A stretch of DNA of 64,000 nt from Dehalococcoidia bacterium (GTDB lineage: Bacteria > Chloroflexota > Dehalococcoidia > Lucifugimonadales > UBA2962). The DNA lies in contig OZ242262.1 of the NCBI GenBank assembly GCA_965207145.1, forward strand, positions 1,352,827 to 1,416,826. The letters run 5' to 3'. The translations under genes were made by a program, and so were the position numbers. The notes below the pieces were generated by a model, which made no database searches, had not been told where the DNA came from, and saw only the letters and a program-made list of their open reading frames with translations. Shown in pieces: positions 11,688-25,203 of this stretch; position 1 is the first letter of the stretch, and each line of letters starts with the position of its first letter.

Positions 11688-12066
11688 GCATCACCTCGTA
11701 TTTTGTCGCTACAAACTAGTTTATAACACAAACTCATAGGGTTGAAAAGTACGTTGGTAGGCTGACTGCCGGTCCTCGCGTTCAGATTGGTCGATCGGCC
11801 AAGGGCCTGCTGCCCCGGACTCGCGGCCGTGAGGGTGGATGGCCATCGTGGGCATCGGATTCGAAATCGATCAGATAAATCGGCTCAAATGTCAGCAAAC
11901 CACCGGTTGCTGAATCTTTTGTGCAATAATGCGCGCGGGACTCGATCGGTGCCAAAGCGGTGCGAGAACGGCCTGTCGGCTGGCGGGTCCCTTCTGCAGA
12001 GCCTGGCAGGCCCTTTCGGTCCGCAACCGTGCCGGTTGGTCTGGACTAGTTAGGGAGGTCGGGACC

Positions 12067-13818
12067 ATGAAGCGACTCTTGATCGTTTTGGCATGTACCC
12101 TCGTCGGCTCAATCGCCGCGGCGGCATGCGCGGGCGAAACCGAGGTTGTGGAGAAGATCGTCGAGGTGCCGGTGGTGGAGGAGGTGGTCAAGGAGGTTGA
12201 GGTCGAGAAGATCGTCGAGGTGGAAAAGGAGGTGGTGAGGGAGATCGAGGTCGAAAGGGTAGTTGAGGTCGAGGTCGAAAAGCTCCTCATCGCCACGCCC
12301 ACCCCGCCTCCGGCGACGGGCGAGCCTCAATTCGGCGGCACACTGAGGATCGTCGCGCAGGCCAGCATAAACAGCCTGGATCCTGCCCACGACGGGGCCT
12401 ACGTGGCCGTCGCGGTGGGCTCCCATATGTTCGAGGGGCCTCTCGGTTGGGACCTCAATCTGGCTGATGGCCCCCGGATGGCCGATGAGTGGAGGATCAG
12501 CGACGACGGTCTCACTTGGACCTTCACCTTGCGGCCCGGGATGATGTTCCACAACGGTGAGCCGGTCACCGCACAGGACGTGGTGACCTCCTTCGGGCGC
12601 TACCTGAACGGTGCGCATTCGACGGCCACGCTGATGCATGAGTTCACAGACAACGAGAACCAGTTCACCGTCATCGACGATCTCTCGTTCGACGTGAACC
12701 TGGTCACACCCTACGGGGCCGTGGCTGCAGGCATTGCCAGGCCCTTCGGCAGCGTCTACGTCATGCCCCACAGCCTCATTCATTCCACGACTCACACCGC
12801 GCCGACGCCCGAGTACGTGGGGTCGGGTGCATACGAGTACGAGGACTGGAGGCAGGGCGACAGGGTGACCCTGAAGCGGTTCGAAGGCTACGTTGCCAGG
12901 GGCGAGGCGAACAGCCTTTACACCGGAAAACAGACCGCCTACATAGACACCCTCATATGGCTGGAGATCCCGGACGAAGAGACCAAGATCGCCGGCCTGG
13001 AAACGGGAGAGTGGGACATTGTGGACGGTGCGGGACTTGATTTCTTCAAGCGACTCAATGAGGACCCCGACTTTGTGGTGCCCGTGTACAAGCCCGGTCA
13101 TCGATCGGACTTTCGCCCGTGGGCCGGTTTCCCGCCCTTTGACGACCTCCTAGCCAGGAGAGCCCTCCAGGTTGGAATGGACATCGAGGCGACGATGTTC
13201 GCCCTGGGCGGCAGGGACCTCTGGGATCTGTGCCCCGCCGTCTTCTACTGTGGCACCCCGCTTGAGACCGACATAGGCGCCGACCAGTACTACAACCTCA
13301 ATGACAAGGAGCTGGCGCGCGAATTGGTCGCCCAATCGTCCTATGACGGTGAGACCGTCGTACTGCTCAACCCCAGCGACTACGCCACCATCACCCCGGT
13401 GGGCATCGTGGTAAAGCAGGAAATAGAGGATATGGGGTTCAACGTCGAGCAGCCGGCCCTGGACTGGGCGACGGTCATAAGCACCTTCGGCGAAGAACGC
13501 AGCACCAGATACGCCGGTCTGACGGCCTGGGCGTCCCACTGGTGCTGCGGTGAGCCGCTCAGCGACTTCTATCTGGACGGCGACGGGTGGTTCACGGCCA
13601 AGATCCCCGAGCTGAAGCGACTCCGGATCGAGTACGCTCAGGCCACCGACCAGGCGGAAAGATTCGCGATCGCAGAGCAGCTTCAGCTCGAGGCATACAA
13701 GAACGTGGTGATCGTCTACCTGGGCACCTGGTACGCGATATTCCCTCACACGACGGCACTCAAGAACTTCCAGGTCAAGGCGTTCCCCTACTATGCGAAC
13801 GTCTGGCTCGAACGCTAG
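12067..13818 (+). CDS. ABC transporter substrate-binding lipoprotein, family 5 (peptide/nickel, DppA/OppA-like)
   Basis: GGGAGG lies upstream of the ATG at 12067. Lipobox 'LACTLVGSIAAAAC', then a Glu/Val-rich tether. The mature part begins 'PQFGGTLRIVAQASINSLDP', typical of SBP_bac_5. The upstream 46 codons of the listed ORF are probably not translated. Confidence 0.85.
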   Translation: MKRLLIVLACTLVGSIAAAACAGETEVVEKIVEVPVVEEVVKEVEVEKIVEVEKEVVREIEVERVVEVEVEKLLIATPTPPPATGEPQFGGTLRIVAQASINSLDPAHDGAYVAVAVGSHMFEGPLGWDLNLADGPRMADEWRISDDGLTWTFTLRPGMMFHNGEPVTAQDVVTSFGRYLNGAHSTATLMHEFTDNENQFTVIDDLSFDVNLVTPYGAVAAGIARPFGSVYVMPHSLIHSTTHTAPTPEYVGSGAYEYEDWRQGDRVTLKRFEGYVARGEANSLYTGKQTAYIDTLIWLEIPDEETKIAGLETGEWDIVDGAGLDFFKRLNEDPDFVVPVYKPGHRSDFRPWAGFPPFDDLLARRALQVGMDIEATMFALGGRDLWDLCPAVFYCGTPLETDIGADQYYNLNDKELARELVAQSSYDGETVVLLNPSDYATITPVGIVVKQEIEDMGFNVEQPALDWATVISTFGEERSTRYAGLTAWASHWCCGEPLSDFYLDGDGWFTAKIPELKRLRIEYAQATDQAERFAIAEQLQLEAYKNVVIVYLGTWYAIFPHTTALKNFQVKAFPYYANVWLER

Positions 13819-13833: not shown

Positions 13834-15768
13834 GTGAAAAAGGCGGTGAGGGTCACGTATGACGTCCGCGTGCCAATGTCGGACGGAGTGCAGTTGGCCG
13901 GTAACCTCTACCGCCCCGATGCCCCCGGGCCGTTCCCCGCCATCCTGACGTATATCCCATACCTTAAGGATGGCTTCGGCGGCCTGGGGGGCATGGAACC
14001 CTACCAGCGTCACTTCGCATCCAGGGGATACGCTGTCATGCAGCTTGACTTCCGTGGAGTGGGGAGTTCCGAAGGCGTCAATCCATATCCGTTTGACCCC
14101 AGGGAGCGCCTCGATGTCCACGAGGCCGTCGAGTGGATGGCCGCACAGCCCTGGTGCGACGGTGCGGTGGGTATGTGGGGCCTCTCATACGGGGGCATAA
14201 CCGCAATAGCCGCGGCTACAACGCGTCCTCCCCACCTTAAGGCGATCGTCCCCGTCCACGCCACCGATGACAACTGGAGCGCGATGTTCGTGCACCGCGG
14301 CTCCCGCCTTATGCTGCTGGCCGATCCCCACTGGGGTCCGGGGATGACGGCCAACAACCTCCTGCCACCGCTGCGGTCGGACGGTACACCGGACTGGATC
14401 GAGCGCTGGTACGAGCGCCTGGAAGGCAATACCCTTTGGCACCTTGCATGGCACGGCGAACCGCCGACGCCGGACTACTTGGAGCGTCAGAAGGCGGACG
14501 CTAGCCTCATCGATATCCCGATGCTTGGAATATGCGGATGGCATGATGCCTACCCCGAGGACATGTTCCGCGTATTCGAGCAGGCCCGCGGCCCGAAGAG
14601 GATCATTTTCGGCCCCTGGAAGCACGTGTTTCCCGACCAGACGTCCGTTGAGCCCGTCGATTTCGTGGCGGAGATGGACAGGTGGTGGGACAGGTGGCTA
14701 AAGGGTGAACAGAACGGCGTCGAAACCGAGCCGCCGGTGACCATCTACGTCCAGGGGGCAGGGCGGTGGAGAGACGAGTTGGAGTGGCCTATCCTCCGCA
14801 CCCGTAGCGAGACCTTATTCGCCGCCATGGGAGGAGGGCTGGCGCCGGAGCCGTCCGGCGAAAGCCCGCGGGCCGAAGTGTACGAGTATGACGCCAGGGT
14901 GGGCCTGGCGTCGGCGGCCTACGATTCGATTCTCGACCCAATAGACTACCCGGCCGACCAGACATCGGATGACCTCGGCTCTCTTCGTTACGATTCCGCC
15001 GCCCTGGAGGCGCCAATAGAGGTCACGGGACAGCCGTCAGTGACGCTGTTCTTCAGCACGGATGCGCCACTGGAAGAGGTGGACCTCGTTGCCAAGCTTG
15101 TAGATGTAACCCCGGACGGCCATTCGTATCTGGTGACCTTCGACAGCCTGCAGGCCTCCCAGGCCGATCCGGCTGGCCGCTGCGACAATGGCGAAGTCTA
15201 CGCAGCCACCATCCCGCTGAGGCCGACTTCGTACGAGTTCGGGGCCGGGCATAGAGTCCGCCTGTGCATCTCCGGCGCCAACTTTCCTGCGATCTGGCCG
15301 ACCCCCCGCCGCTACTCTCTATCGGTCTATACGGGCGCGCCATATGCCACGGAGTTGGTGCTCCCCACGGTCCCTCCCCAGGCGCCGGCTCTGCCTCCGC
15401 CCGGCCTGACCGTCATTTCGGATCCGGTGAGGCCCAGTGATGCGCTGCTCGACAGGGGCACCGCCTACTCGGTCGAGCGTGACCTTGTTGCCCGAGCCTG
15501 CTCCCTACACGGGAGGCGATGGGTACAGTTGCAGGTCGAGCCACACGTCCTATACTCCAACCACCAGGAGTTTTCACTGGATGTGGACGCTGATCACCCT
15601 GACCGTGCGAGCACCTCGACCAAAGCGATAGCCAGGCTCGATCGGCCAACCGGCGCTGTCGAGGTCCGCGTGCATAGTCAGACCACGCTTCGTGCCCTGT
15701 CAATAAGGGCCGAGATAGACCTGGACGGAAGTCTCTTCTGGGAACGCAGTTGGCAGAAGCGATGGTAG
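13834..15768 (+). CDS. CocE/NonD-family hydrolase (S15 X-Pro dipeptidyl-peptidase-like)
   Basis: N-terminus 'VPMSDGVQLAGNLYRPD..GPFPAILTYIPY', nucleophile elbow 'GMWGLSYGG', and a C-terminal jelly-roll region. GTG start 13 nt after the SBP stop. Confidence 0.85.
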   Translation: MKKAVRVTYDVRVPMSDGVQLAGNLYRPDAPGPFPAILTYIPYLKDGFGGLGGMEPYQRHFASRGYAVMQLDFRGVGSSEGVNPYPFDPRERLDVHEAVEWMAAQPWCDGAVGMWGLSYGGITAIAAATTRPPHLKAIVPVHATDDNWSAMFVHRGSRLMLLADPHWGPGMTANNLLPPLRSDGTPDWIERWYERLEGNTLWHLAWHGEPPTPDYLERQKADASLIDIPMLGICGWHDAYPEDMFRVFEQARGPKRIIFGPWKHVFPDQTSVEPVDFVAEMDRWWDRWLKGEQNGVETEPPVTIYVQGAGRWRDELEWPILRTRSETLFAAMGGGLAPEPSGESPRAEVYEYDARVGLASAAYDSILDPIDYPADQTSDDLGSLRYDSAALEAPIEVTGQPSVTLFFSTDAPLEEVDLVAKLVDVTPDGHSYLVTFDSLQASQADPAGRCDNGEVYAATIPLRPTSYEFGAGHRVRLCISGANFPAIWPTPRRYSLSVYTGAPYATELVLPTVPPQAPALPPPGLTVISDPVRPSDALLDRGTAYSVERDLVARACSLHGRRWVQLQVEPHVLYSNHQEFSLDVDADHPDRASTSTKAIARLDRPTGAVEVRVHSQTTLRALSIRAEIDLDGSLFWERSWQKRW

Positions 15769-15836
15769 AAAGTCGCCGAGCCAACTGTTCGTTGCTGGTG
15801 TAGGGAGAACGCCCTCCGCCCCGGGGATTTCACGGA

Positions 15837-16589
15837 ATGAGGAATTCTGCTATGCGGACAGGTCGCATTAGGCTACTCACCCTGTTTTGCGTGCTCGTAG
15901 CCGCCAGCCCAATGGTGCTCATGGCGGCCTGCGGATCAGCGGCTTCGCCACAGCCCCAGGAGTTGCCGACGCCGGAGGGAACGGCGATCAGGGGCACCCC
16001 TGTCCCTACTATCGGCGGCACGATCGGCGGCTGTGAATTAGGGCCGAAGGCCGATTGTCCCGGAGCCGATTTCAGCGATCAGGATCTTGGAGAGATCGTC
16101 CTGGGGTGGGGGCAGCTCGATGAATCCGGGAGGGAGGGGGCTGACCTGAGCGAGGCAAACCTCCGGGGTGCCCAGTTCGTCGCAACCAACCTTGAAGGGA
16201 TCGTGTTTGAGAGTGCCGACCTGAGAGAGGCCAACTTCCGTCTCGCCAACCTCGCCAATGCGTCGCTGTTCGGCGCCGATGCCAGCGGTGCCGACTTTAC
16301 ACGGGCGACGCTGGAGAGCGGCGAGTTCAAGGACGCAGACCTGAGCGGCGCCAACTTCAGCGGCGCGGTGATGAAGGGAGGGGACTTCACCCGTGCCAAC
16401 CTCTCAGGTGCGAACCTCCGAGGAGTTTCACTTCTGGGCGCGTTTCTCACCGACGCCGATCTCAGCGGTGCCGATCTGACCGATGCCAACCTCACATTCG
16501 CCGACGTAAGCGGAACGAACTTCGAAGGCGTCATCTTCTGCAATACGAAGATGGCGGACGGCAAGGTCAACAGCGAGGGATGTCCCTAG
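15837..16589 (+). CDS. Secreted pentapeptide-repeat lipoprotein, copy 1
   Basis: Lipobox 'LMAAC', a Pro-rich tether and 'GGCELGPKADCPGADFS'. About 25 A(D/N)LxGAxL-type pentapeptide units follow ('ADLSGANFSGAVMKGGDFTRANLSGANLRG'). C-terminal 'FCNTKMADGKVNSEGCP'. Confidence 0.85.
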   Translation: MRNSAMRTGRIRLLTLFCVLVAASPMVLMAACGSAASPQPQELPTPEGTAIRGTPVPTIGGTIGGCELGPKADCPGADFSDQDLGEIVLGWGQLDESGREGADLSEANLRGAQFVATNLEGIVFESADLREANFRLANLANASLFGADASGADFTRATLESGEFKDADLSGANFSGAVMKGGDFTRANLSGANLRGVSLLGAFLTDADLSGADLTDANLTFADVSGTNFEGVIFCNTKMADGKVNSEGCP

Positions 16590-16770
16590 GCCGCCGGCAC
16601 CCGGCAGCCACCTGCCTCCCGCTTGGCGCGCCTTCTATTAGGAGCCGAGATAGACCTGAGGGCAGACTCTCTTGGGAGCGTAGCCGCCGAGAGCCGTGGT
16701 AGACGACGCTGGTACTACCTGATCTCTGTTGGTACAGAGTAATCGTCCTCCGACCCGGGGGTTTCACGGA

Positions 16771-17526
16771 ATGAGGAACACCTCCTCGTGGACAGGTTGC
16801 ATTAGGCTACTTACCTTGCTTTGCCTATTAATAGCCGCCAGCCCAATGGTGCTCATGGCGGCCTGCGGATCAGCGGCTTCGCCACAGCCCCAGGAGTTGC
16901 CGACGCCGGAGGGAACGGCGATCAGGGGCACGCCTGTCCCTACTATCGGCGGCACGATCGGCGGCTGCGAATTAGGGCCGAAGGCCGATTGTCCCGGAGC
17001 CGATTTCAGCGATCAGGATCTTGGAGAGATCGTGCTGGGCCGCCGCCACCATCACGCCGAATCCGGGAGGGAGGGGGCCGACCTGAGAGAGGCAAACCTC
17101 CGGGGTGCCCAGTTCGTCGCATCCAACCTTGAAGGGATCGTGTTTGAGAGTGCTGACCTGAGAGAGGTCAACTTCCGTCGCGCCAACCTCGCCAATGCGT
17201 CGCTGTTCGGCGCCGATGCCAGCGGTGCCGACTTTACACGGGCGACGCTGGAGAGCGGCGAGTTCAAGGATGCAGACCTGAGCGGTGCCAACTTCAGCGG
17301 CGCGGTGATGAAGGGAGGAGACTTCACGCGTGCCGACCTTTCCGGGGCGAACCTTAGAGGAGTTTCGCTCTTGGGCGCGTTCCTCACTGACGCCGATCTC
17401 AGCGGTGCCGATCTGACCGATGCCAACCTCACATTCGCCGACATAAGCGGCACGAACTTCGAAGGCGCCATTTTCTGCAATACGAAGATGGCAGACGGCA
17501 AGGTCAATAGCGAGGGCTGTCCCTAG
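16771..17526 (+). CDS. Secreted pentapeptide-repeat lipoprotein, copy 2
   Basis: Paralog of copy 1. The ATG at 16771 is homologous to the starts of copies 1 and 3; the listed ORF start at 16729 is an upstream extension. It differs mainly in the patch 'LGRRHHHAESG'. Confidence 0.85.
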   Translation: MRNTSSWTGCIRLLTLLCLLIAASPMVLMAACGSAASPQPQELPTPEGTAIRGTPVPTIGGTIGGCELGPKADCPGADFSDQDLGEIVLGRRHHHAESGREGADLREANLRGAQFVASNLEGIVFESADLREVNFRRANLANASLFGADASGADFTRATLESGEFKDADLSGANFSGAVMKGGDFTRADLSGANLRGVSLLGAFLTDADLSGADLTDANLTFADISGTNFEGAIFCNTKMADGKVNSEGCP

Positions 17527-17699
17527 GCCGCCGGCACCCGGCAGCCACCTGCCTCCGGCTTTTTCTATAGGGGCCGATACAGGCCTGGATGGCAGGCTCT
17601 CTTGGGAGCGCAGCCGCCGAGAGCCGTGGTAGACGACGCTGATATTATCTGATTGCTGTTGGTATAGAGTAATCGTCCTCTGGCCGGGAGGTTAACGGA

Positions 17700-18452
17700 A
17701 TGAGGAACTCTTCCTCTTGGACAGGTCGCATTAGGCTACTTACCTTACTTTGCCTAGTAATAGCCGCCAGCCCAATGGTGCTCATGGCGGCCTGCGGATC
17801 AGCGGCTGCGCCACAGCCAGAGGAGGAGCCGACGCCAGAAGAATCGCCAATCATCGGCACCCCTGTTCCTACAATCGGCGGCACGATCGGCGGCTGCGAG
17901 ATAGGACCGAAGGCTGACTGCCCTGGAGCCGATTTCAGCAACCAGGACCTTGGAGAGATCGTCTTGGGGTGGCAGCAGAAAGACGACTACGGCAGGGATG
18001 CCGCTGACCTTAAGGAGGCCAACCTTCGCGGTGCCCAGTTCATAGCCTCCAACCTCGAGGGAATACTGTTTGAGAGTGCGGATTTGAGGGAGGCCAACTT
18101 CCGTCTCGCCAACCTGACCAATGCGTCGCTGTTCGGCGCCGATGCAAGCGGTTCCGACTTTACGCGGGCGACGCTGGAGAGCGGCGAGTTCAAGGACGCC
18201 AACCTAAGCGGCGCCAACTTCAGCGGTGCGGTGATGAAGGGAGGGGACTTCACCCGCGCCGACCTTTCCGGGGCGAACCTCAGAGGAGTCTCGCTTCTCG
18301 GAGCGTTCCTCACCGACGCTGATCTCAGTGGTGCCGATCTGACCGATGCCAACCTCACATTCGCCGACGTAAGCGGAACGAACTTCGAAGGCGCCATCTT
18401 CTGCAATACGAAGATGGCGGACGGCAAGGTCAACAGCGAGGGCTGTCCCTAG
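17700..18452 (+). CDS. Secreted pentapeptide-repeat lipoprotein, copy 3
   Basis: Same architecture. It is more diverged in the tether ('PQPEEEPTPEESPIIG') and in the patch 'LGWQQKDDYGRDA'. Confidence 0.85.
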   Translation: MRNSSSWTGRIRLLTLLCLVIAASPMVLMAACGSAAAPQPEEEPTPEESPIIGTPVPTIGGTIGGCEIGPKADCPGADFSNQDLGEIVLGWQQKDDYGRDAADLKEANLRGAQFIASNLEGILFESADLREANFRLANLTNASLFGADASGSDFTRATLESGEFKDANLSGANFSGAVMKGGDFTRADLSGANLRGVSLLGAFLTDADLSGADLTDANLTFADVSGTNFEGAIFCNTKMADGKVNSEGCP

Positions 18453-18552
18453 GCCGCCGGCACCCGGCGGCCGCCTTTCACCAAGGTCGGGCCCGCTGAG
18501 ACCCCGTGGAGCTGAGGCTGGCGACCGACATGGCCCGGTCCCCGGACCCGAT

Positions 18553-19989
18553 TTGGGAGGGTTGCCAAGTTTGAAAAACCGGCCCACCTATCTGGGTCTC
18601 GTTGCCGGGATCTTCTTGGTAACCATTGCCCTGGCCTGCGGCCGGGCTCCCGAAGATTCCGGACAACGAACGGAGATCTCTCCGGAGGTGTCCGTTTTCC
18701 AGGAGAGTGACCAGGCGTCGGCCGAACGCCTGATTGGCTCCGCCGCCAGACTCCAGGAGCAGGGTGACGTCCAAAGATCGATCGAGGTTCTCGACCGCGC
18801 GCTGAAGCTGGATTCCACCAACGCGCAGGCCTACTACCACCGGGCAAACGCCAGATCCAGCATGGGCGATATCGAAGGGGCCATCTCCGACTACGGCGAG
18901 GCCATCCGGGTGGACCCTGAGATGGCCGACGCGTACCTGAGGAGGGGCGTCTCGCAATCCAGGCTGCGCCGCTTCGAGGAGGCTGTTGATGACCTTGACC
19001 AGTTCATGCGGAGGTCAGAGCCGGACGCCATCGCCCAGCGTGCCCGTGGCCTGGCTTACTACGGCCTTGGCGAATGGGAGAGGGCCATCGAGGATTTCGA
19101 TCGGGCCATCGAGCTGGATCCCGGTCTGGCGGTCGCCTACAACGACCGTGCCCTGGCCCTTGTCAACCTGGGCCGACACGCGGAGGCCATAGAGGACTTC
19201 GGCAGGGCGGTCGACTTGAGCCCGGACGTGGCGGTCTTTTACGACAACCGCGGCGGTGCATGGCAGGCGATGGGAAACTACGTCTGGGCGGTCGAGGACT
19301 ACGACAGGGCTCTGCGCGTCGATCCATTGTATGTCCCTTCCTATATAAACAGGGGCAACGCTTACCGGCGCCTTAACGAGTACGAGCTGGCGATAAAGGA
19401 CTACGATGAGGCCATCCGGCTGGCTCCCTGGTCCCCGGCGGCGTACTTTAACCGCGGTGTGGCCTATGGCTTGATGGGCGACCTGGATTCTGCGGTTCGC
19501 GATTACGGTCTGGCCATAGGCCGGGATCAGTTCTACGCCGAGGCCTACCACAACAGGGGCAGAGCGCTTGCCATCGAGGGAGACTTAGATTCGGCGATTG
19601 AGGACCTGGGCAGAGTAATAGAGCTTCAGCCGCACTGGGCCGAACCATACAACGACAGGGCCAGAGCCAGGCTGAACCTGGGGGATCCCGAGGGGGCCAT
19701 TGACGACCTCAGCACGGCCATCGACCTGGCTCCCCAGTTCACGGCCGCCTACCTCAACAGAGGCATGGCAGCCTACCGCATCGGCGACTTCGAACTGGCG
19801 ATCACCGACTACACTAAGGTGATAGACCTGAAACCGGACGCGCTGGAGGCCTACGAGAACCGGTCGAGAGCATACGTGATGCTGGGCCTTGACGCTGAGG
19901 CCGGCCAGGACGTGGCCGCGCTCGCCGAAATGGGTCTGGATGTAAGTGATCTGGAGGAGGAGCTTGCCGACCTGGGTTCGCGCAGGTAG
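18553..19989 (+). CDS. TPR-repeat lipoprotein
   Basis: Lipobox-like 'VTIALAC', then at least 11 consecutive 34-residue TPR units ('AYYHRANA..GD..GAISDYGEAIRVDP' and similar). TTG start as called; the start is uncertain. Confidence 0.85.
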   Translation: MGGLPSLKNRPTYLGLVAGIFLVTIALACGRAPEDSGQRTEISPEVSVFQESDQASAERLIGSAARLQEQGDVQRSIEVLDRALKLDSTNAQAYYHRANARSSMGDIEGAISDYGEAIRVDPEMADAYLRRGVSQSRLRRFEEAVDDLDQFMRRSEPDAIAQRARGLAYYGLGEWERAIEDFDRAIELDPGLAVAYNDRALALVNLGRHAEAIEDFGRAVDLSPDVAVFYDNRGGAWQAMGNYVWAVEDYDRALRVDPLYVPSYINRGNAYRRLNEYELAIKDYDEAIRLAPWSPAAYFNRGVAYGLMGDLDSAVRDYGLAIGRDQFYAEAYHNRGRALAIEGDLDSAIEDLGRVIELQPHWAEPYNDRARARLNLGDPEGAIDDLSTAIDLAPQFTAAYLNRGMAAYRIGDFELAITDYTKVIDLKPDALEAYENRSRAYVMLGLDAEAGQDVAALAEMGLDVSDLEEELADLGSRR

Positions 19990-21650: not shown

Positions 21651-22655
21651 TCATTCCGGTTCACGGGACTTCGCCACCAAGAGCTCGCTGGCGCTCCACA
21701 ACCTGGACCCGTTTTCCGGGTCCGATGCGACTGGCGAGACCTGCTTGCGATGCATCAGGTGCAGGTACATCCCGGTAGAGATGCCCGCTTCCTCCGCGCA
21801 GCACAGGTATATGACCGGTCCGATCGCCTCCTCCGGAGACTGGAAGAATCGCCGCAGTACCGCGTTGACGATCGGTCTCAACAGCATGGGCGCGTCCCTG
21901 GCAATGTTCGTGGCGACGCCCCCCGGGCACATCGCGTGCACAGCGACATCGACCCTCTCGGTCGGGTTCAGGCGGCGCGATAGCTCGGTCGCGAACGTGC
22001 AGAGGGCAAGCTTGCTGATGGCGTAGTGCCGCATGCTCTCGGTAATCCCGAACTCGGTGTAAGCACCTAGTCGATCGAAATCAATGGCCTGAGCGGACCG
22101 GTGCGACTCCGAGGCGATGATCACGATCCGCGGCGTCTCGCCGGCCTTTCTGGAAGGACGAATGACGCCATCTTTCAGCAACCGGTCGATCATCACCCTC
22201 TTTGCAAGGAAATGAACCGCGAACATGACCTCGTACCCCTGCGGGGTCTTTCTCGACCTTCGCGACATCAGGCCGGCGTTAAGGAGCGCTATGTCGATCC
22301 GGATTTTGCGCCTGGAGAGCTCGTCGCAGAAGCGGTGCACGGAGCGAAGGTCCGCCAGGTCCACCTCGATCAGCTCCACGGACCCGGATCCGGAAAGCCG
22401 CATGATCTCGCCACTGGTCTCTGCATGACCGGGCCGGCATGCCAGGATCATGTTCCCGCCGCGCCTTGCCAGATCGATTGCAGCAGCCCTGCCCAGTCCG
22501 CTGTTGGCCCCTGTGACAAGGCAGGTCTTGCCGTCGATCCGCACGTCGTCCGGGAGGGGACTGATGTCGGGGGTCTTGCGACTCCGCAGATCCTGGATTG
22601 CGGCGATGGTGGCGCCTACTACGCCTTCTCCAATCTTCCCGGACTCTCGTGCCAT
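21651..22655 (-). CDS. SDR-family oxidoreductase
   Basis: 'CLVTGANSGLGRAAA' (TGxxxGxG), 'LLNAGL' (NAG) and 'YAISKLAL' (YxxxK). Confidence 0.85.
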   Translation of the reverse strand: MARESGKIGEGVVGATIAAIQDLRSRKTPDISPLPDDVRIDGKTCLVTGANSGLGRAAAIDLARRGGNMILACRPGHAETSGEIMRLSGSGSVELIEVDLADLRSVHRFCDELSRRKIRIDIALLNAGLMSRRSRKTPQGYEVMFAVHFLAKRVMIDRLLKDGVIRPSRKAGETPRIVIIASESHRSAQAIDFDRLGAYTEFGITESMRHYAISKLALCTFATELSRRLNPTERVDVAVHAMCPGGVATNIARDAPMLLRPIVNAVLRRFFQSPEEAIGPVIYLCCAEEAGISTGMYLHLMHRKQVSPVASDPENGSRLWSASELLVAKSREPE

Positions 22656-22711
22656 GGCTATGGGTGCTCCCCGGATGACCTCCGGTTGTTGCTCAGCGGC
22701 TGGCTGCCGGC

Positions 22712-23953
22712 CTATTCGAACGGGATCGCATGCTTCCTCCGGTAGGGCGCAAAGGCCTCGTCGACGACCTGCTCGCTCAACCCGAAATCACTCATCCGGT
22801 AGACGTGCCTGCCGAATCGGTTCTGCGGATTCGCCTCCAGGCATCGAGCGGCTTCGCGCTCGGCCCCGTGATCGAAACCGATCCTGGCCTGCCGGCAGAT
22901 CCGCCGGAGCTCGGCGATGGGATCTGCCACCAGATCGTAGTACGACACGTCAATGAACCGGTGGGCCCCCGCTTCCTCCCGGGCCTGCATGGCCCGCCGA
23001 ACCATCCTGGCGTTCTTCCTCTGCCAGTGCCTCCCGATCTCATTCGGATCGACGAGATCGCTGAAGATGCCGCGGCCGTGGGCCACCATGCTGCAGAACG
23101 AGGCGAGAGCTGTTCGCGGGTCTCGGTGCGTCTGCACAATGGTCGCGCCGGGGAAAACCCTGAGGAATACATCAAGGTATTCCATGTGCTGTGGGGTCTT
23201 GAGCACCCAGGCGCTGCCCGGTCGCTGCCAGCAGAGCACCTTCAGGACTAGCCGCAGGTATTCATAGGACCGCGTGTGATCCTGTTCCTCCAGCCAGCGG
23301 GAATAGCTCGGCACGTGCATCATCGCCTCGGCGGACTGGCTCATGAAGGTCAGGTCAAGCAGAAGGACGTCTTCCTCCGGCTCCTTGTAGTCGATCGGAT
23401 GGATCGCCATGAACTGCGGGGCCAGGTAGGAAATGGCCGTCTTTGCAATAGCTGCACGCCTCCTGCGGGCTGCGTGCTTGCGGCCTTTTGGATCGGCAGC
23501 CGGCACCGGGTCCAGTGCTTCGGCGCCCGACACGCCCCTGATCGCAGGATGGGAATTCAGCAGTCGCTGCAGCAGGGTGGTGCCGGTGCGCTGCAGTCCA
23601 GTGACCATGACGATCGTCCCGAGGTCGATGTCATGGATCTCGGGATGTCTCTTGAGCAGATCCTCGATTCGCAACCGGTGAATCAGCGCTCCGGCTAGGC
23701 GCGACCGCTGTATCAACTGCCCGGTCGTGGTCAGTCCCGCCTCCTCGTTGATCGAGTCGACGAGCACCTTAAGGGCACGGAGGCAGCCGTCGTCGCCAAA
23801 ATCGGTGAGTCCGGTCTTGCGCTGTGCGTACCCTGTGAGCGCATCGACCTCCAGCTTGCGGGTAAGGCCGAAGCGTCGGCCCGCCCTGCCGATCCGGTTG
23901 AAGATCCTGACGGGTATGGGTCGATGGGGGTTGCCATAGTCCGTGGAGGTCAC
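22712..23953 (-). CDS. Sulfotransferase-family protein
   Basis: 'IVMVTGLQRTGTTLLQRLLNSHP' resembles the PAPS 5'-phosphosulfate-binding loop. 'IVQTHRDPRTALASF' resembles the 3'-phosphate-binding region. Confidence 0.75.
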   Translation of the reverse strand: MTSTDYGNPHRPIPVRIFNRIGRAGRRFGLTRKLEVDALTGYAQRKTGLTDFGDDGCLRALKVLVDSINEEAGLTTTGQLIQRSRLAGALIHRLRIEDLLKRHPEIHDIDLGTIVMVTGLQRTGTTLLQRLLNSHPAIRGVSGAEALDPVPAADPKGRKHAARRRRAAIAKTAISYLAPQFMAIHPIDYKEPEEDVLLLDLTFMSQSAEAMMHVPSYSRWLEEQDHTRSYEYLRLVLKVLCWQRPGSAWVLKTPQHMEYLDVFLRVFPGATIVQTHRDPRTALASFCSMVAHGRGIFSDLVDPNEIGRHWQRKNARMVRRAMQAREEAGAHRFIDVSYYDLVADPIAELRRICRQARIGFDHGAEREAARCLEANPQNRFGRHVYRMSDFGLSEQVVDEAFAPYRRKHAIPFE

Positions 23954-23985
23954 ATTCCCATCCCGGTCGCGCAGGTCACGTGTCC

Positions 23986-25203
23986 CTAGGCCAGTTCCGG
24001 CAGGTCGCTCAACTTGACAACTCGGGTCCGGGGCTGAGGGTGCTCATCGGCCCGTACCCAGCGGAAACACATCGTGCCCGACGTGTGGCCTGCGGTCTCG
24101 ATCCAGTTGGGTCGGCCGGGATCCTCGTGCGCCACGACCAGGAGCACAGAACCGTCTTGCTCGTAGTGGGCTAAATGCTTGTTGGTGTGGATCGTGAAGT
24201 GGCGGTAGTCCAGCGATTCCATCCAGTAGTTGTTTAGCTGGAAATTCCAGTACTCGCACCCCGGAGGGGTGACCTCTATCAACAGGGCTTCGTCCTCGGC
24301 GAGAGCCCAATGGCTGTGATAGTAGGCGATGTTCGGATCGCCTCCGGCGGCCAGGGAAACCTGCGGATCGAACAGTGGTAGTTCGTTGCTATGCTTCTTG
24401 AAATCGCGCGCCCACTTCGCGAACAGAAGTGGCGCGCCCGCCACCAGCGCCCCAGCCTTGCCGAGCCCCTCGTCCAGCGCCCTTGCCGTCAGTTGGGAGG
24501 CGCGCCGCTCGTCCTCGGGGCAGTTTATGCGCTCTATAGTCAGTTCCGCCGGTGTCTCGGCGTCCCGGTCGAGGAAGGTCTGACGAACCACCAGGGTCCC
24601 GGTTTCCGGCCTCATGGGCAGCCAGTTCCGATCCCGGGGATTGCAGCTCAGCACGAGTTCAAAGCAACCATTCTCGTCCATTTCTATCTGTTCGGATTCG
24701 ATGTGCCCGGTTGGGGGAAGACCACCCCCCTGCCCGTAGTTGCCGGCCTGGGTGCCGAAGCTCAGGTAGGCGATGTTGTTGCGCCGTCCGGTGATCCTGT
24801 ATTCGTAATTCCCATCAAGCGCGGCCGTCTGATAGAAATTATCGGGGTTGTCGGCGCCCAGCTTGGTGATCTCGTCGACAACGCGATGGAGCACGGGCGC
24901 CTTGGGGTCGGCGTGCTCGACGAACGCGGTCAGGCCGGCGCGGGCTAGACGGCTCAAGTACCGATAACCCTCCGCCTGGCTTAGCGGATCCCGCGGAGCG
25001 CCGGGGAAGCTCAGCGCGGCCCCCGCCGCCTTGAGTGAATCGCAGAAGTCGTTCCAGGACTGGCCGCCGACAACGCGCTCGGCGGCCACATCTTCCTGCG
25101 TCTTGCCACGAAGTCTCCAGATGAGAAGGGAGATGCTTCGAAATGCGGCTAGGAGACGGATGGCGAACTTTGGCATGGAGTACCTCTTCGGGACGACGCT
25201 CAC
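23986..25203 (-). CDS. DUF1214-like domain protein (function unknown)
   Basis: 405 aa. The N-terminus 'AEGYRYLSRLARAGL' and the C-terminal 'YWNFQLNNYW...GRPNWIETAGHTSGTMCFRW' pattern recall DUF1214 proteins. The assignment is from memory of the family only. Confidence 0.5.
   Translation of the reverse strand: MSVVPKRYSMPKFAIRLLAAFRSISLLIWRLRGKTQEDVAAERVVGGQSWNDFCDSLKAAGAALSFPGAPRDPLSQAEGYRYLSRLARAGLTAFVEHADPKAPVLHRVVDEITKLGADNPDNFYQTAALDGNYEYRITGRRNNIAYLSFGTQAGNYGQGGGLPPTGHIESEQIEMDENGCFELVLSCNPRDRNWLPMRPETGTLVVRQTFLDRDAETPAELTIERINCPEDERRASQLTARALDEGLGKAGALVAGAPLLFAKWARDFKKHSNELPLFDPQVSLAAGGDPNIAYYHSHWALAEDEALLIEVTPPGCEYWNFQLNNYWMESLDYRHFTIHTNKHLAHYEQDGSVLLVVAHEDPGRPNWIETAGHTSGTMCFRWVRADEHPQPRTRVVKLSDLPELA

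What the first reader, a model, noticed from the sequence alone, without database searches (positions are those of the whole stretch)
15702..18475. Threefold tandem amplification of a secreted pentapeptide-repeat lipoprotein gene, with relics of the neighbouring gene's 3' end in each spacer
Three paralogs start at 15837, 16771 and 17700, giving periods of 934 and 929 bp. Both spacers (16636-16703 and 17565-17633) contain a recognisable copy of the last ~65 bp of the CocE/NonD gene (15702-15768). For example, 'gccgagatagacctg' is exact and '...ctcttgggagcg.agccgccgagagccgtggtaga' aligns to '...ctcttctgggaacgcagttggcagaagcgatggtaga'. The duplication unit therefore ran from inside the CocE/NonD 3' end to the end of the pentapeptide gene, consistent with unequal recombination. 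Copies 1 and 2 are nearly identical, so that event is probably recent, while copy 3 is older. The proteins are unusual because they combine a lipobox, a Pro-rich tether and two Cys pairs (C-x7-C before and C-x13-C after the repeats) that could cap an extracytoplasmic beta-helix. Extracellular roles for pentapeptide-repeat proteins are poorly understood. A TPR lipoprotein gene follows directly at 18553.
Basis: seen in the sequence. Interest (0 to 1): 0.65.

Follow-up and report, generated by a model that had tools for sequence, protein, structure and literature searches.

The report
Tandemly tripled surface beta-helix lipoprotein gene
In an uncultured Dehalococcoidia lineage, a gene for a membrane-anchored, acidic pentapeptide-repeat beta-helix protein was duplicated twice in tandem, leaving decaying copies of the end of the upstream gene; the history is unusually clear but ordinary, and the protein's function is still unknown.

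Summary
Three head-to-tail units (periods 934 and 929 nt) each carry a 250-251 aa pentapeptide-repeat (PRP) lipoprotein gene. Both spacers contain a decayed copy of about 80 nt of the CocE/NonD 3' end (z = 14-15 against shuffles).

Eleven related Dehalococcoidia loci share the synteny SBP-CocE-PRP-TPR-serine hydrolase. They give a series of 1 copy (about 80% nt identity), 2 copies (about 90%) and 3 copies (about 95%, three independent assemblies including the window). The array is therefore not an assembly artefact, and single copy is ancestral.

Its spacer and first 60-105 coding nt come from copy 3 and the rest from copy 1 (Fisher p 6e-12 to 1e-18). So a non-homologous duplication (1 to 2 copies) was followed by unequal homologous crossover (2 to 3), with later gene conversion.

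All copies are under purifying selection (dN/dS 0.04-0.3). Each keeps a paralog-specific loop at residues 91-102.

The protein is a lipobox-anchored, Pro-rich-tethered, acidic, eight-coil beta-helix with invariant Cys pairs at both ends. Signal peptide plus two flanking Cys pairs is already described for Caulobacter YjbI, so this is a variant, not a new kind. Function is inferred only. Interest is modest.

The parts
13834..15768 (+). CocE/NonD-family (S15) hydrolase gene. It is intact, and its last ~83 nt (15686-15768) are the source of the relics.
   Evidence: Pfam Peptidase_S15 6e-49 and PepX_C 4e-29. NCBIfam CocE_NonD 3.6e-90, above cutoff. Full-length orthologs are present in all related loci.
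15769..15836 (+). Intergenic leader of copy 1. The -10-like motif reads GGTGTAGGGAGAA here, against the ancestral GGTATAGAGTAA.
   Evidence: Alignment of the upstream regions of 15 gene copies from 7 genomes.
15837..16589 (+). PRP lipoprotein copy 1 (250 aa). Paralog-specific loop GWGQLDESGREG at 16107-16142.
16590..16622 (+). Post-stop hairpin segment (GGCCGCCGGCACCCGGCAGCC...). This is the right-hand end of duplication unit 1.
   Evidence: Inverted repeats I1/I2, folding, alignment.
16623..16702 (+). Relic 1 of the CocE/NonD 3' end. It is non-coding and has a 1-nt deletion.
   Evidence: Local alignment z = 14.2, 0 of 2000 shuffles as good.
16703..16770 (+). Leader of copy 2. It is copy-3-like and keeps TACAGAGTAAT, a one-base variant of the ancestral -10-like motif TATAGAGTAA.
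16771..17526 (+). PRP lipoprotein copy 2 (251 aa). It is a chimera, with the crossover zone at ~16833-16876 (codons ~21-35, the invariant block AASPMVLMAACGSAA). Paralog-specific loop GRRHHHAESGREG at 17041-17079.
   Evidence: Sliding-window identity. Segment trees. Informative-site breakpoint test, Fisher p 6e-12 (window), 1e-17 (L001) and 1e-18 (L081).
17527..17559 (+). Post-stop hairpin segment of unit 2.
17560..17632 (+). Relic 2 of the CocE/NonD 3' end. It has a 7-nt deletion relative to relic 1.
   Evidence: z = 15.6, 0 of 2000 shuffles as good.
17633..17699 (+). Leader of copy 3. It keeps GGTATAGAGTAA and the GGAGG ribosome-binding site.
17700..18452 (+). PRP lipoprotein copy 3 (250 aa). 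Paralog-specific loop GWQQKDDYGRDA at 17970-18005.
18453..18485 (+). Perfect 9-bp hairpin (GGCCGCCGG CAC CCGGCGGCC) and the right edge of the ancestral duplicated segment.
18553..19989 (+). TPR-repeat lipoprotein gene. It is a conserved downstream neighbour.
   Evidence: Pfam TPR_1 2e-82. The lipobox (L/V)(A/G)CG is conserved in 9 orthologs.

Best explanation
This is a real, inherited, two-step tandem amplification of a gene for a surface-tethered pentapeptide-repeat protein.

Step 1 happened in the common ancestor of the 2- and 3-copy genomes, after the split from the single-copy relatives. A 0.93-kb segment was duplicated head-to-tail by illegitimate (at most microhomology-mediated) joining. 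The segment ran from codon -27 of CocE/NonD through the 68-nt intergenic leader and the PRP gene to ~33 nt past its stop codon, including a hairpin. This left a non-coding CocE-tail relic in front of the new copy.

Step 2 happened in the ancestor of the window, L001 and L081. Unequal homologous crossover between the two paralogs, inside the invariant stretch that encodes the end of the signal peptide and the lipobox, produced a chimeric middle copy. That copy has the 5' spacer, relic and signal peptide of the distal paralog and the mature part of the proximal paralog.

Since then gene conversion has homogenised parts of the gene bodies. Purifying selection has kept all three open and has preserved one paralog-specific loop (residues 91-102).

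Each product is inferred to be exported by the lipoprotein pathway and lipid-anchored at Cys32. A disordered Pro-rich tether of ~25-30 residues would hold it off the membrane. [quoted passage not shown]

The most likely role, by inference only, is a non-enzymatic extracytoplasmic binding or scaffold protein of the cell envelope. It would be analogous to YjbI-type secreted PRPs, with the three paralogs differing in partner or ligand specificity through the variable loop. Shown: the anatomy, the copy-number series, the chimerism, the selection regime and the predicted fold. Inferred: lipidation, disulfides, localisation and function.
For: Repeat structure.

Relic: significance; absence of any relic after the last copy or after a single copy.

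Copy-number series, all with conserved synteny: 3 copies in the window, L001 (OZ220697, 94.7% nt) and L081 (95.7% nt); 2 copies in L002, L082 and L083-85 (~87-90% nt); 1 copy in L003, L004, L006 and L087.

Chimeric copy 2: identity to c3 is 0.80-0.98 and to c1 0.53-0.87 in windows lying left of alignment column ~240, then reverses. Breakpoint test in L001: c2~c3 58 sites against c2~c1 5 sites on the left, 18 against 61 on the right, p 1e-17. Segment trees agree.

Selection: dN/dS is 0.04-0.30 for all pairs. Mosaic dS shows conversion; for example window c1-c2 has dS 0.04 in codons 106-170 but 0.41 in codons 171-251.

Loop: dN 0.19-0.49 between paralogs, but 0 between the c1 and c3 orthologs (1 change in c2), even in L002 where the flanking coils are homogenised (dS 0.06).

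Protein: Pfam PF00805. AF2 pLDDT is above 90 for ~168 residues, residues 1-51 are disordered, and the loop region has pLDDT 65. Foldseek hits to HetL, Np275/276, Qnr, MfpA, Rfr32 and TL15 have probability 1.0. The lipobox Cys and four cap Cys are invariant or at least 90% conserved across 23 homologs. The mature protein is acidic and its 20-residue coil register is unbroken.

Precedent: YjbI has a secretion signal, two conserved Cys pairs flanking the beta-helix and an envelope role.
Against: No expression, proteomic or read-level data were available.

Lipidation and disulfide formation are sequence-based inferences, and the AF2 coordinates could not be inspected for S-S distances.

In the gene body the two copies of L002 and L083 cluster together (97% bootstrap). 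Taken alone this would fit an independent duplication in that lineage. It is attributed to gene conversion because the 5' segment and the loop keep c1-type and c3-type identity.

The microhomology at the founding junction (ACCA) cannot be proven after this much divergence.

The function is argued by analogy with a diderm protein. The defining charged C-terminal tail of that protein is absent here.
Confidence: 0.8

Rival explanations
1. The array is an assembly artefact: a single gene expanded, or strain variants concatenated, by the assembler.
For: Tandem repeats of ~0.9 kb are a classic problem for assemblers. No read data were available to me.
Against: The units differ by 8-13% in the coding sequence and by up to 40% in the leader, so they are not collapsible near-identical repeats. 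The same three-copy structure, with orthologous copy-specific features, is present in two other independent assemblies at ~95% nt identity: L001, a chromosome-level MAG, and L081. Two-copy arrays recur in at least 5 further assemblies, both short-read and long-read.
Confidence: 0.02
2. The amplification is selected purely for dosage (more PRP per cell), and the paralogs are functionally equivalent. The sequence differences are neutral drift partly erased by gene conversion.
For: The coil region is highly similar among copies and is repeatedly homogenised. All four Cys, the lipobox and the C-cap are identical. The same family is multiplied locally in other lineages, L088 and L005.
Against: The loop at residues 91-102 differs at 6-12 of 13-15 codons between paralogs. 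Yet it is unchanged between the c1 and c3 orthologs, and differs by one residue in c2, across dS 0.2-0.45. It also survives in L002 where the adjacent sequence has been converted. That pattern points to paralog-specific constraint.
Confidence: 0.3
3. The 'relic' is not a fossil. It is a functional element (promoter, UP element, terminator or small RNA) that is kept because each copy needs it.
For: It is retained in every spacer of every amplified genome. It lies directly upstream of a -10-like motif, and a hairpin precedes it.
Against: There is no Rfam match, even at E<=1. The spacers do not fold better than shuffles (z +1.0 and 0.0). There is no sigma-70 consensus hit on the + strand. The relic carries frameshifts and a 7-nt deletion, and its orthologous identity (0.77-0.94) is no higher than that of the flanking leader (0.86-0.99) and is close to synonymous-site divergence.
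Confidence: 0.1
4. The two-copy lineages and the three-copy lineages duplicated the gene independently.
For: In the gene body (nt 106 to the end) the two L002 and L083 copies cluster with each other, with 97% bootstrap. L002 c1-c2 dS (0.195) is lower than the ortholog dS (0.32-0.45).
Against: The junction position, the relic with the same extent, the 5' leader phylogeny (the c1 clade including L002_c1 and L083_c1 has 88% support) and the c1-type and c3-type loops are all shared between the 2- and 3-copy genomes. One founding event plus concerted evolution explains all of this.
Confidence: 0.07

Closest known systems
YjbI-type secreted pentapeptide-repeat protein (Caulobacter crescentus YjbI; EMBO J 2026, PMC12864828)
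   Same: Both are small single-domain PRPs. Both have an N-terminal export signal, a predicted quadrilateral beta-helix with acidic surface patches, and one conserved Cys pair at each end of the helix. Both are located outside the cytoplasm.
   Different: YjbI has an ordinary secretion signal, sits in the LPS leaflet of an outer membrane, and needs a charged (Lys-rich) C-terminal tail. The window proteins have a lipobox and a Pro-rich tether, and they end one residue after the last Cys with no tail. They come from Dehalococcoidia (Chloroflexota), which are generally considered to lack an LPS outer membrane (background knowledge, not tested here).
Thylakoid-lumen PRPs Rfr32 (PDB 2F3L/2G0Y), Rfr23 (2O6W) and Arabidopsis TL15/At2g44920 (3N90)
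   Same: All are exported PRPs with signal peptides and disulfide-stabilised termini, and their function is unknown. Foldseek matches have probability 1.0. Sequence matches run over the repeats only.
   Different: Their C-caps are two alpha-helices bridged by a disulfide. The AF2 model here has no helices and shows short beta-hairpins at both ends. The cap sequences C-x7-C-P-G-A-D-F and F-C-N-T-K-M-x-D-G-x-x-N-x-x-x-C-P have no counterpart in any PDB chain. Those proteins are also not lipoproteins.
Cytoplasmic PRPs (Qnr, MfpA, AlbG, HetL, Np275/276)
   Same: They share the Rfr fold and the pentapeptide consensus.
   Different: They have no signal peptide and no Cys caps. The Qnr/MfpA proteins mimic DNA and act on gyrase. 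All NCBIfam scores for the window protein are far below the family cutoffs; for example HetL scores 95 against a cutoff of 260, and Qnr 58 against 240.
Classical tandem gene amplification by illegitimate duplication followed by unequal crossover and concerted evolution
   Same: The hallmarks are all present: head-to-tail units, a junction that carries a fragment of the neighbouring gene, a chimeric internal copy, copy-number variation among relatives, and gene-conversion mosaics.
   Different: Nothing differs in principle. This case is simply unusually well resolved, because 1-, 2- and 3-copy states all survive in sequenced relatives.

Membership tests
Pentapeptide-repeat protein superfamily (Pfam PF00805, Rfr fold) | [quoted passage not shown] | tested here: met
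   PF00805 E 6e-36 to 2e-48, above the gathering cutoff. There are about 32 consecutive pentapeptides in an unbroken 20-residue register.
Pentapeptide-repeat protein superfamily (Pfam PF00805, Rfr fold) | Right-handed quadrilateral beta-helix | tested here: met
   AF2 pLDDT is 96-98 over residues 101-240, with one beta-bridge every 5 residues. Foldseek probability is 1.0 to HetL, Np275/276, Qnr, MfpA and Rfr32. This is a prediction, not an experiment.
Bacterial lipoprotein (signal peptidase II substrate) | Positively charged n-region, hydrophobic h-region and a lipobox ending in Cys | tested here: met
   The N-terminus reads MRNS..RIRLLTLFCVLVAASPMVLMAA|CGS. Cys32 is invariant and Ala31 at least 90% conserved in 23 homologs.
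Bacterial lipoprotein (signal peptidase II substrate) | Actual diacylglyceryl modification and cleavage | not testable with these tools
   This needs proteomics, globomycin sensitivity or mass spectrometry.
YjbI-type secreted PRP | Secretion signal that directs the protein out of the cytoplasm | tested here: met
   A signal is present, but it is of the lipoprotein type. The feature list is taken from PMC12864828.
YjbI-type secreted PRP | Two conserved cysteine pairs flanking the beta-helix | tested here: met
   C66/C74 are invariant and C235/C249 are at least 90% conserved. They lie at the first and last turns of the model.
YjbI-type secreted PRP | Charged C-terminal tail that spans the outer membrane and is required for function | tested here: not met
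   All three copies, and nearly all homologs, end ...NSEGCP, one residue after the last Cys.
YjbI-type secreted PRP | Sequence orthology to C. crescentus YjbI | not tested
   The YjbI sequence was not retrievable with these tools.
Lumenal PRPs (Rfr32/TL15 type) | C-terminal two-alpha-helix cap locked by a disulfide | tested here: not met
   DSSP on the model shows no helix of 4 or more residues. The C-terminus has strands at 237-238 and 244-245. There is no sequence match to the caps in the PDB.
Qnr/MfpA topoisomerase-protecting PRPs | Cytoplasmic location and a family-level score above the NCBIfam cutoff | tested here: not met
   A signal peptide is present. The Qnr score is 58 bits against a cutoff of 240, and the MfpA score is 40 against 360.
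Tandem array generated by unequal homologous crossover | An internal copy that is a chimera of the flanking paralogs, with a single breakpoint | tested here: met
   Breakpoint at coding nt 63-106, Fisher p 6e-12 to 1e-18 in three genomes.
Tandem array generated by unequal homologous crossover | Copy-number differences among related genomes at the same locus | tested here: met
   1-, 2- and 3-copy states occur with identical flanking synteny.

The most novel reading that the evidence does not exclude
The three paralogs may be functionally differentiated, lipid-anchored counterparts of the YjbI envelope 'sentinel' in a bacterium without an LPS outer membrane. In this reading each paralog reads a different ligand or metal through its paralog-specific loop (for example the His-rich RRHHH loop of copy 2). 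They would act together with the conserved neighbouring surface lipoproteins (a family-5 solute-binding protein and a TPR protein). The amplification would then be an adaptive diversification of an extracytoplasmic beta-helix receptor family, not simple duplication.
Probability: 0.12. Interest if true: 0.55.

Novelty: new variant of a known kind. Interest (0 to 1): 0.3.

Why it matters
What most pentapeptide-repeat proteins do is unknown, and this is especially true of the exported ones. The first mechanistic study of a secreted, Cys-flanked PRP (YjbI) appeared only in 2026.

This locus shows that a related architecture exists as a lipoprotein in Chloroflexota. The gene lies in a five-gene neighbourhood that is conserved down to about 77% amino-acid identity. 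All copies are under purifying selection, and one loop has diverged in a paralog-specific, conserved way. That loop is a concrete target for experiments on specificity.

As evolution, it is a clean, datable textbook series: 1, 2 and 3 copies, a fossil junction, a chimeric copy and gene conversion. It is not a new phenomenon.

Tried and rejected
- **RNA element in the spacers.** Rfam found nothing on the whole window at gathering thresholds, and nothing on 15.5-18.7 kb at E<=1. Folding the spacers gave z-scores of +1.0 and 0.0. The post-stop hairpin regions gave -2.3, -1.8 and -1.0, which is not compelling.
- **Promoters and terminators.** The sigma-70 and terminator consensus scan found no + strand site, and counts were at shuffle expectation. 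Independent promoters for copies 2 and 3 therefore remain unproven.
- **Exact-protein lookup of copy 1.** It is not on record, so the window's own sample could not be identified.
- **Sample and assembly accessions.** A paper search returned nothing, so the habitat is undetermined. A guess that the source is sponge- or coral-associated was dropped for lack of evidence.
- **Homolog search with a short N-cap query.** The word index returned one hit and was uninformative. The exhaustive HMMER search with the N-cap showed a small family: about a dozen 50%-identity clusters of small proteins, plus weak matches to linker repeats of giant PRP-like proteins.
- **AFDB fold search.** The library was not available.
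- **Disulfide geometry.** Model coordinates are not exposed, so it could not be measured.
- **PDB searches with the cap sequences alone.** Only the repeats matched.
- **Literature on PRPs in Dehalococcoidia or SAR202.** None of the ten top-ranked papers mentioned pentapeptide repeats.
- **NJ bootstrap values.** Some deep clades look unreliable, probably a rooting effect of the support routine. I rely on the site-count breakpoint test instead.

Full report
**1.

Three ORFs of 250, 251 and 250 aa start at 15837, 16771 and 17700 on the + strand. Direct-repeat families have start-to-start spacings of 934-937 and 926-930 nt. The three ~0.94-kb units align end to end with 92% mean column identity.

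All three proteins match Pfam Pentapeptide (PF00805) at E 6e-36 to 2e-48. The upstream gene (13834-15768) matches Peptidase_S15 + PepX_C and NCBIfam CocE_NonD. The downstream gene (18553-19989) consists of TPR repeats.

The similarity between the spacers and the CocE tail is far beyond chance. Local alignment scores are 47 and 48, against a mean of ~14.6 (sd 2.2) for dinucleotide shuffles. That gives z = 14.2 and 15.6, with none of 2000 shuffles as good. A multiple alignment of all upstream regions shows that the relic covers about 83 nt of CocE (15686-15768). The relics carry a frameshift and a 7-nt deletion. No relic follows the last copy, or the single copy in relatives.

**2. It is not an assembly artefact, and single copy is ancestral**

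A scan of one genome per species, plus exact-protein lookups, recovered eleven related loci. The named ones are all Dehalococcoidia MAGs. Nearly all share the same + strand block: family-5 solute-binding lipoprotein, CocE/NonD hydrolase, PRP, TPR lipoprotein, beta-lactamase-family serine hydrolase.

| Copies | Loci | Nucleotide identity to the window |
|---|---|---|
| 3 | window; L001 (OZ220697, chromosome-level); L081 | 94.7% (L001), 95.7% (L081), collinear across the whole array |
| 2 | L002 (OZ244723), L082, L083, L084, L085 | ~87-90% |
| 1 | L003, L004, L006, L087 | ~79-85% for L003 and L004 |

Within the window the units differ by 8-13% in the coding sequence and by up to ~40% in the leader. 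They are therefore not repeats that an assembler would invent.

**3. How the array arose**

The unit consists of:
- 83 nt of the CocE tail;
- the 68-nt leader;
- the 753-nt gene;
- ~33 nt downstream, including the hairpin GGCCGCCGG-CAC-CCGGCGGCC.

The two sequences joined at the founding junction are ...TCACCA|AGG downstream of the PRP gene and ...AGACCA|CGCTT inside CocE. They share at most ACCA. The 1-to-2 step was therefore illegitimate or microhomology-mediated, not homologous.

The 2-to-3 step was different, because copy 2 is a chimera. In all three 3-copy genomes its spacer, relic, leader and first ~60-105 coding nt are copy-3-like (identity 0.80-0.98 to c3 against 0.53-0.87 to c1). From the lipobox codons onward it is copy-1-like. 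Counts of informative sites give a single breakpoint at coding nt 63-106. Fisher p is 6e-12 for the window, 1e-17 for L001 and 1e-18 for L081. Neighbour-joining trees of the two segments swap copy 2 between the c3 and c1 clades.

This is the expected product of unequal crossover between the distal and proximal paralogs of a 2-copy array. The exchange fell within the ~45-nt invariant block that encodes AASPMVLMAACGSAA. So of the two relics now in the window, one descends from the other and not from CocE itself.

In the 2-copy genomes the first copy carries the c1-type loop and leader, and the second carries the c3-type loop. This ties them to the same founding event.

**4. Evolution since then**

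All pairwise dN/dS values are 0.04-0.30, so all copies are maintained.

dS is mosaic along the gene. Between window c1 and c2 it is 0.04 in codons 106-170 but 0.41 in codons 171-251, and L001 shows the reverse pattern. In L002 the two copies have dS 0.06 in codons 106-170. This indicates recurrent gene conversion. It also explains why the L002 and L083 copies cluster together in the gene body.

The c1-c2 dS (0.22) equals the ortholog dS between the window and L001 (~0.2). Step 2 is therefore not very recent.

One segment resists homogenisation, residues 91-102:

| Copy | Loop sequence |
|---|---|
| c1 | GWGQLD-ESGREG |
| c2 | GRRHHHAESGREG |
| c3 | GWQQKD-DYGRDA |
| single-copy genomes | GWRQLD-EFGREG |

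dN here is 0.19-0.49 between paralogs, but 0 between the c1 and c3 orthologs across all amplified genomes; the c2 loop differs by one residue between the window and L001. I read this as paralog-specific functional constraint, not drift.

The relics diverge at about the synonymous rate. Orthologous identity is 0.77-0.94, no higher than the adjacent leader.

**5. What the protein is**

- **Signal peptide.** The N-terminus is MRNS..RIRLLTLFCVLVAASPMVLMAA|C, a lipoprotein signal peptide. The lipobox Cys is invariant in 23 homologs.
- **Tether.** The mature N-terminus (CGSAASPQPQELPTPEGTAIRGTPVPT) is Pro-rich. AlphaFold2 predicts it to be disordered, with pLDDT below 50 to residue 51.
- **Body.** Residues ~55-250 are modelled with pLDDT 85-98 as a beta-helix with a beta-bridge every fifth residue. 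The exception is the 91-100 loop, at pLDDT 65.
- **Fold matches.** Foldseek finds HetL, Np275/276, Qnr, MfpA, Rfr32/23 and TL15, all at probability 1.0.
- **Register and charge.** The sequence keeps an unbroken 20-residue register for eight coils. The mature proteins are acidic, with pI 4.1-4.5.
- **Cys pairs.** C66-x7-C74 and C235-x13-C249 bracket the helix and are invariant or at least 90% conserved. The model places short beta-hairpins there. This is consistent with disulfide staples, but I could not measure distances because coordinates are not exposed.
- **Family placement.** No NCBIfam family cutoff is reached, and no PDB chain matches the cap sequences. An exhaustive HMMER search with the N-cap found only about a dozen 50%-identity clusters of similar small proteins. 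It also found a 458-aa protein with two complete Cys-capped modules, and weak matches to linker repeats of giant PRP-like proteins.

**6. Comparison with what is known**

The PRP review (PMC8145042) records exported PRPs with disulfide-stabilised caps (Rfr32, Rfr23, TL15). It states that the functions of cyanobacterial PRPs are almost completely unknown, and it does not mention lipoproteins.

The 2026 EMBO J paper on C. crescentus YjbI (PMC12864828) defines YjbI-type secreted PRPs by three features:
- (i) a secretion signal;
- (ii) two conserved Cys pairs flanking the quadrilateral beta-helix;
- (iii) a charged C-terminal tail required for function.

That paper assigns YjbI an envelope-homeostasis role in the LPS leaflet. 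The window proteins meet (i), in lipoprotein form, and (ii). They fail (iii), because they end one residue after the last Cys. So they resemble YjbI in architecture, and perhaps in working outside the cytoplasm, but I do not file them as members of that family. The C-cap also differs from the alpha-helical caps of Rfr32 and TL15. The lipid anchor plus Pro-rich tether is the distinguishing variant.

**7. Function (inferred)**

The five-gene block is conserved from ~97% down to ~77% amino-acid identity. More distant relatives again place family members in tandem next to a family-5 solute-binding protein (L088), or flanking the serine-hydrolase gene (L005).

The solute-binding protein, the PRPs and the TPR protein all have lipoboxes, so they would share the outer face of the membrane. 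By inspection, the two hydrolases have no signal peptide.

My best guess is a non-enzymatic surface scaffold or binding module of the envelope, with loop-encoded specificity that differs among paralogs. Confidence in that functional statement alone is low, about 0.25. Confidence in the structural and evolutionary account is high.

**8. Verdict**

The finding is real and well resolved, but ordinary in kind. It combines a tandem gene-family expansion by known mechanisms with a new lipoprotein variant of the already described secreted, Cys-flanked PRP architecture. Interest is 0.3.

Noticed in passing
window 11929-13818 (about 12100-12270): The family-5 solute-binding lipoprotein has a ~60-aa repetitive Glu/Val-rich tether directly after its lipobox (EVVEKIVEVPVVEEVVKEVEVEKIVEVEKEVVREIEVERVVEVEVEK). 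The listed ORF start is probably too far upstream; an internal MKRLLIVLAC... looks like the true signal peptide.
   Followed up: no
window 16079-16570, 17052-17507, 17987-18433 (minus strand): Long antisense ORFs of 148-163 aa lie inside each PRP gene. They are by-products of the GC-rich pentapeptide-repeat coding sequence, not genes.
   Followed up: partly
window 15800-15815 versus 16728-16745 and 17657-17674: A -10-like motif GGTATAGAGTAA upstream of the PRP start is kept in the single-copy genomes L003 and L004 and before copy 3; before copy 2 it reads GGTACAGAGTAA, one base different. Before copy 1 it reads GGTGTAG(G/A)GAGAA in every amplified genome. This suggests that copy 1 lost its own promoter or relies on read-through from CocE/NonD.
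   Followed up: partly
L088 3636-4768: Two short-form members (187 and 180 aa) of the same lipobox + Cys-capped PRP family sit in tandem next to another SBP_bac_5 gene in a different lineage. This is an independent local multiplication of the family.
   Followed up: partly
L005 1-2645: In a more distant Dehalococcoidia MAG (~60% aa identity) two PRP lipoprotein genes flank the beta-lactamase-family gene (PRP - hydrolase - PRP). This is a different arrangement of the same gene set.
   Followed up: no
P0131 (458 aa): A secreted protein contains two complete [C-x7-C-PG ... C-x-T-x-MPxG-x7-C] PRP modules in series. The Cys-capped helix therefore behaves as a reusable domain unit.
   Followed up: no
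P0122 (4470 aa), P0123, P0126, P0127 (1340 aa): The N-cap motif (TPVPT..G.IG.C.IGP.A.CPGADF) weakly matches a linker, GxPxLPxGWxLxxGYLIGPGANLxGADL, that is repeated 5-10 times in giant PRP-like proteins.
   Followed up: no
window 17546-17560 and L083 spacer: The same 7-nt deletion (GGCGCGC) at the left edge of the relic occurs in the window's second spacer and in the spacer of 2-copy locus L083. It is absent from L001, L081 and L002. Whether this is a shared polymorphism, gene conversion or coincidence is unexplained.
   Followed up: no
L082 4029-4895 (P0007): A frameshifted copy 1 reads through into the relic in frame (...AGIDPDGGLLAERGWPKPW). The contig is a low-coverage ('3x') long-read contig with frameshifts in several neighbouring genes, so this is probably sequencing error and not a fusion gene.
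   Followed up: partly
window 21651-25203 and L081/L082/L083: The block downstream of the locus on the minus strand (short-chain dehydrogenase, Sulfotransfer_3, DUF1214 protein) is also syntenic in the close relatives. The rest of the window encodes amidohydrolases including a urease-alpha-like protein, a TRAP transporter and ornithine cyclodeaminase, which is typical heterotroph content.
   Followed up: no
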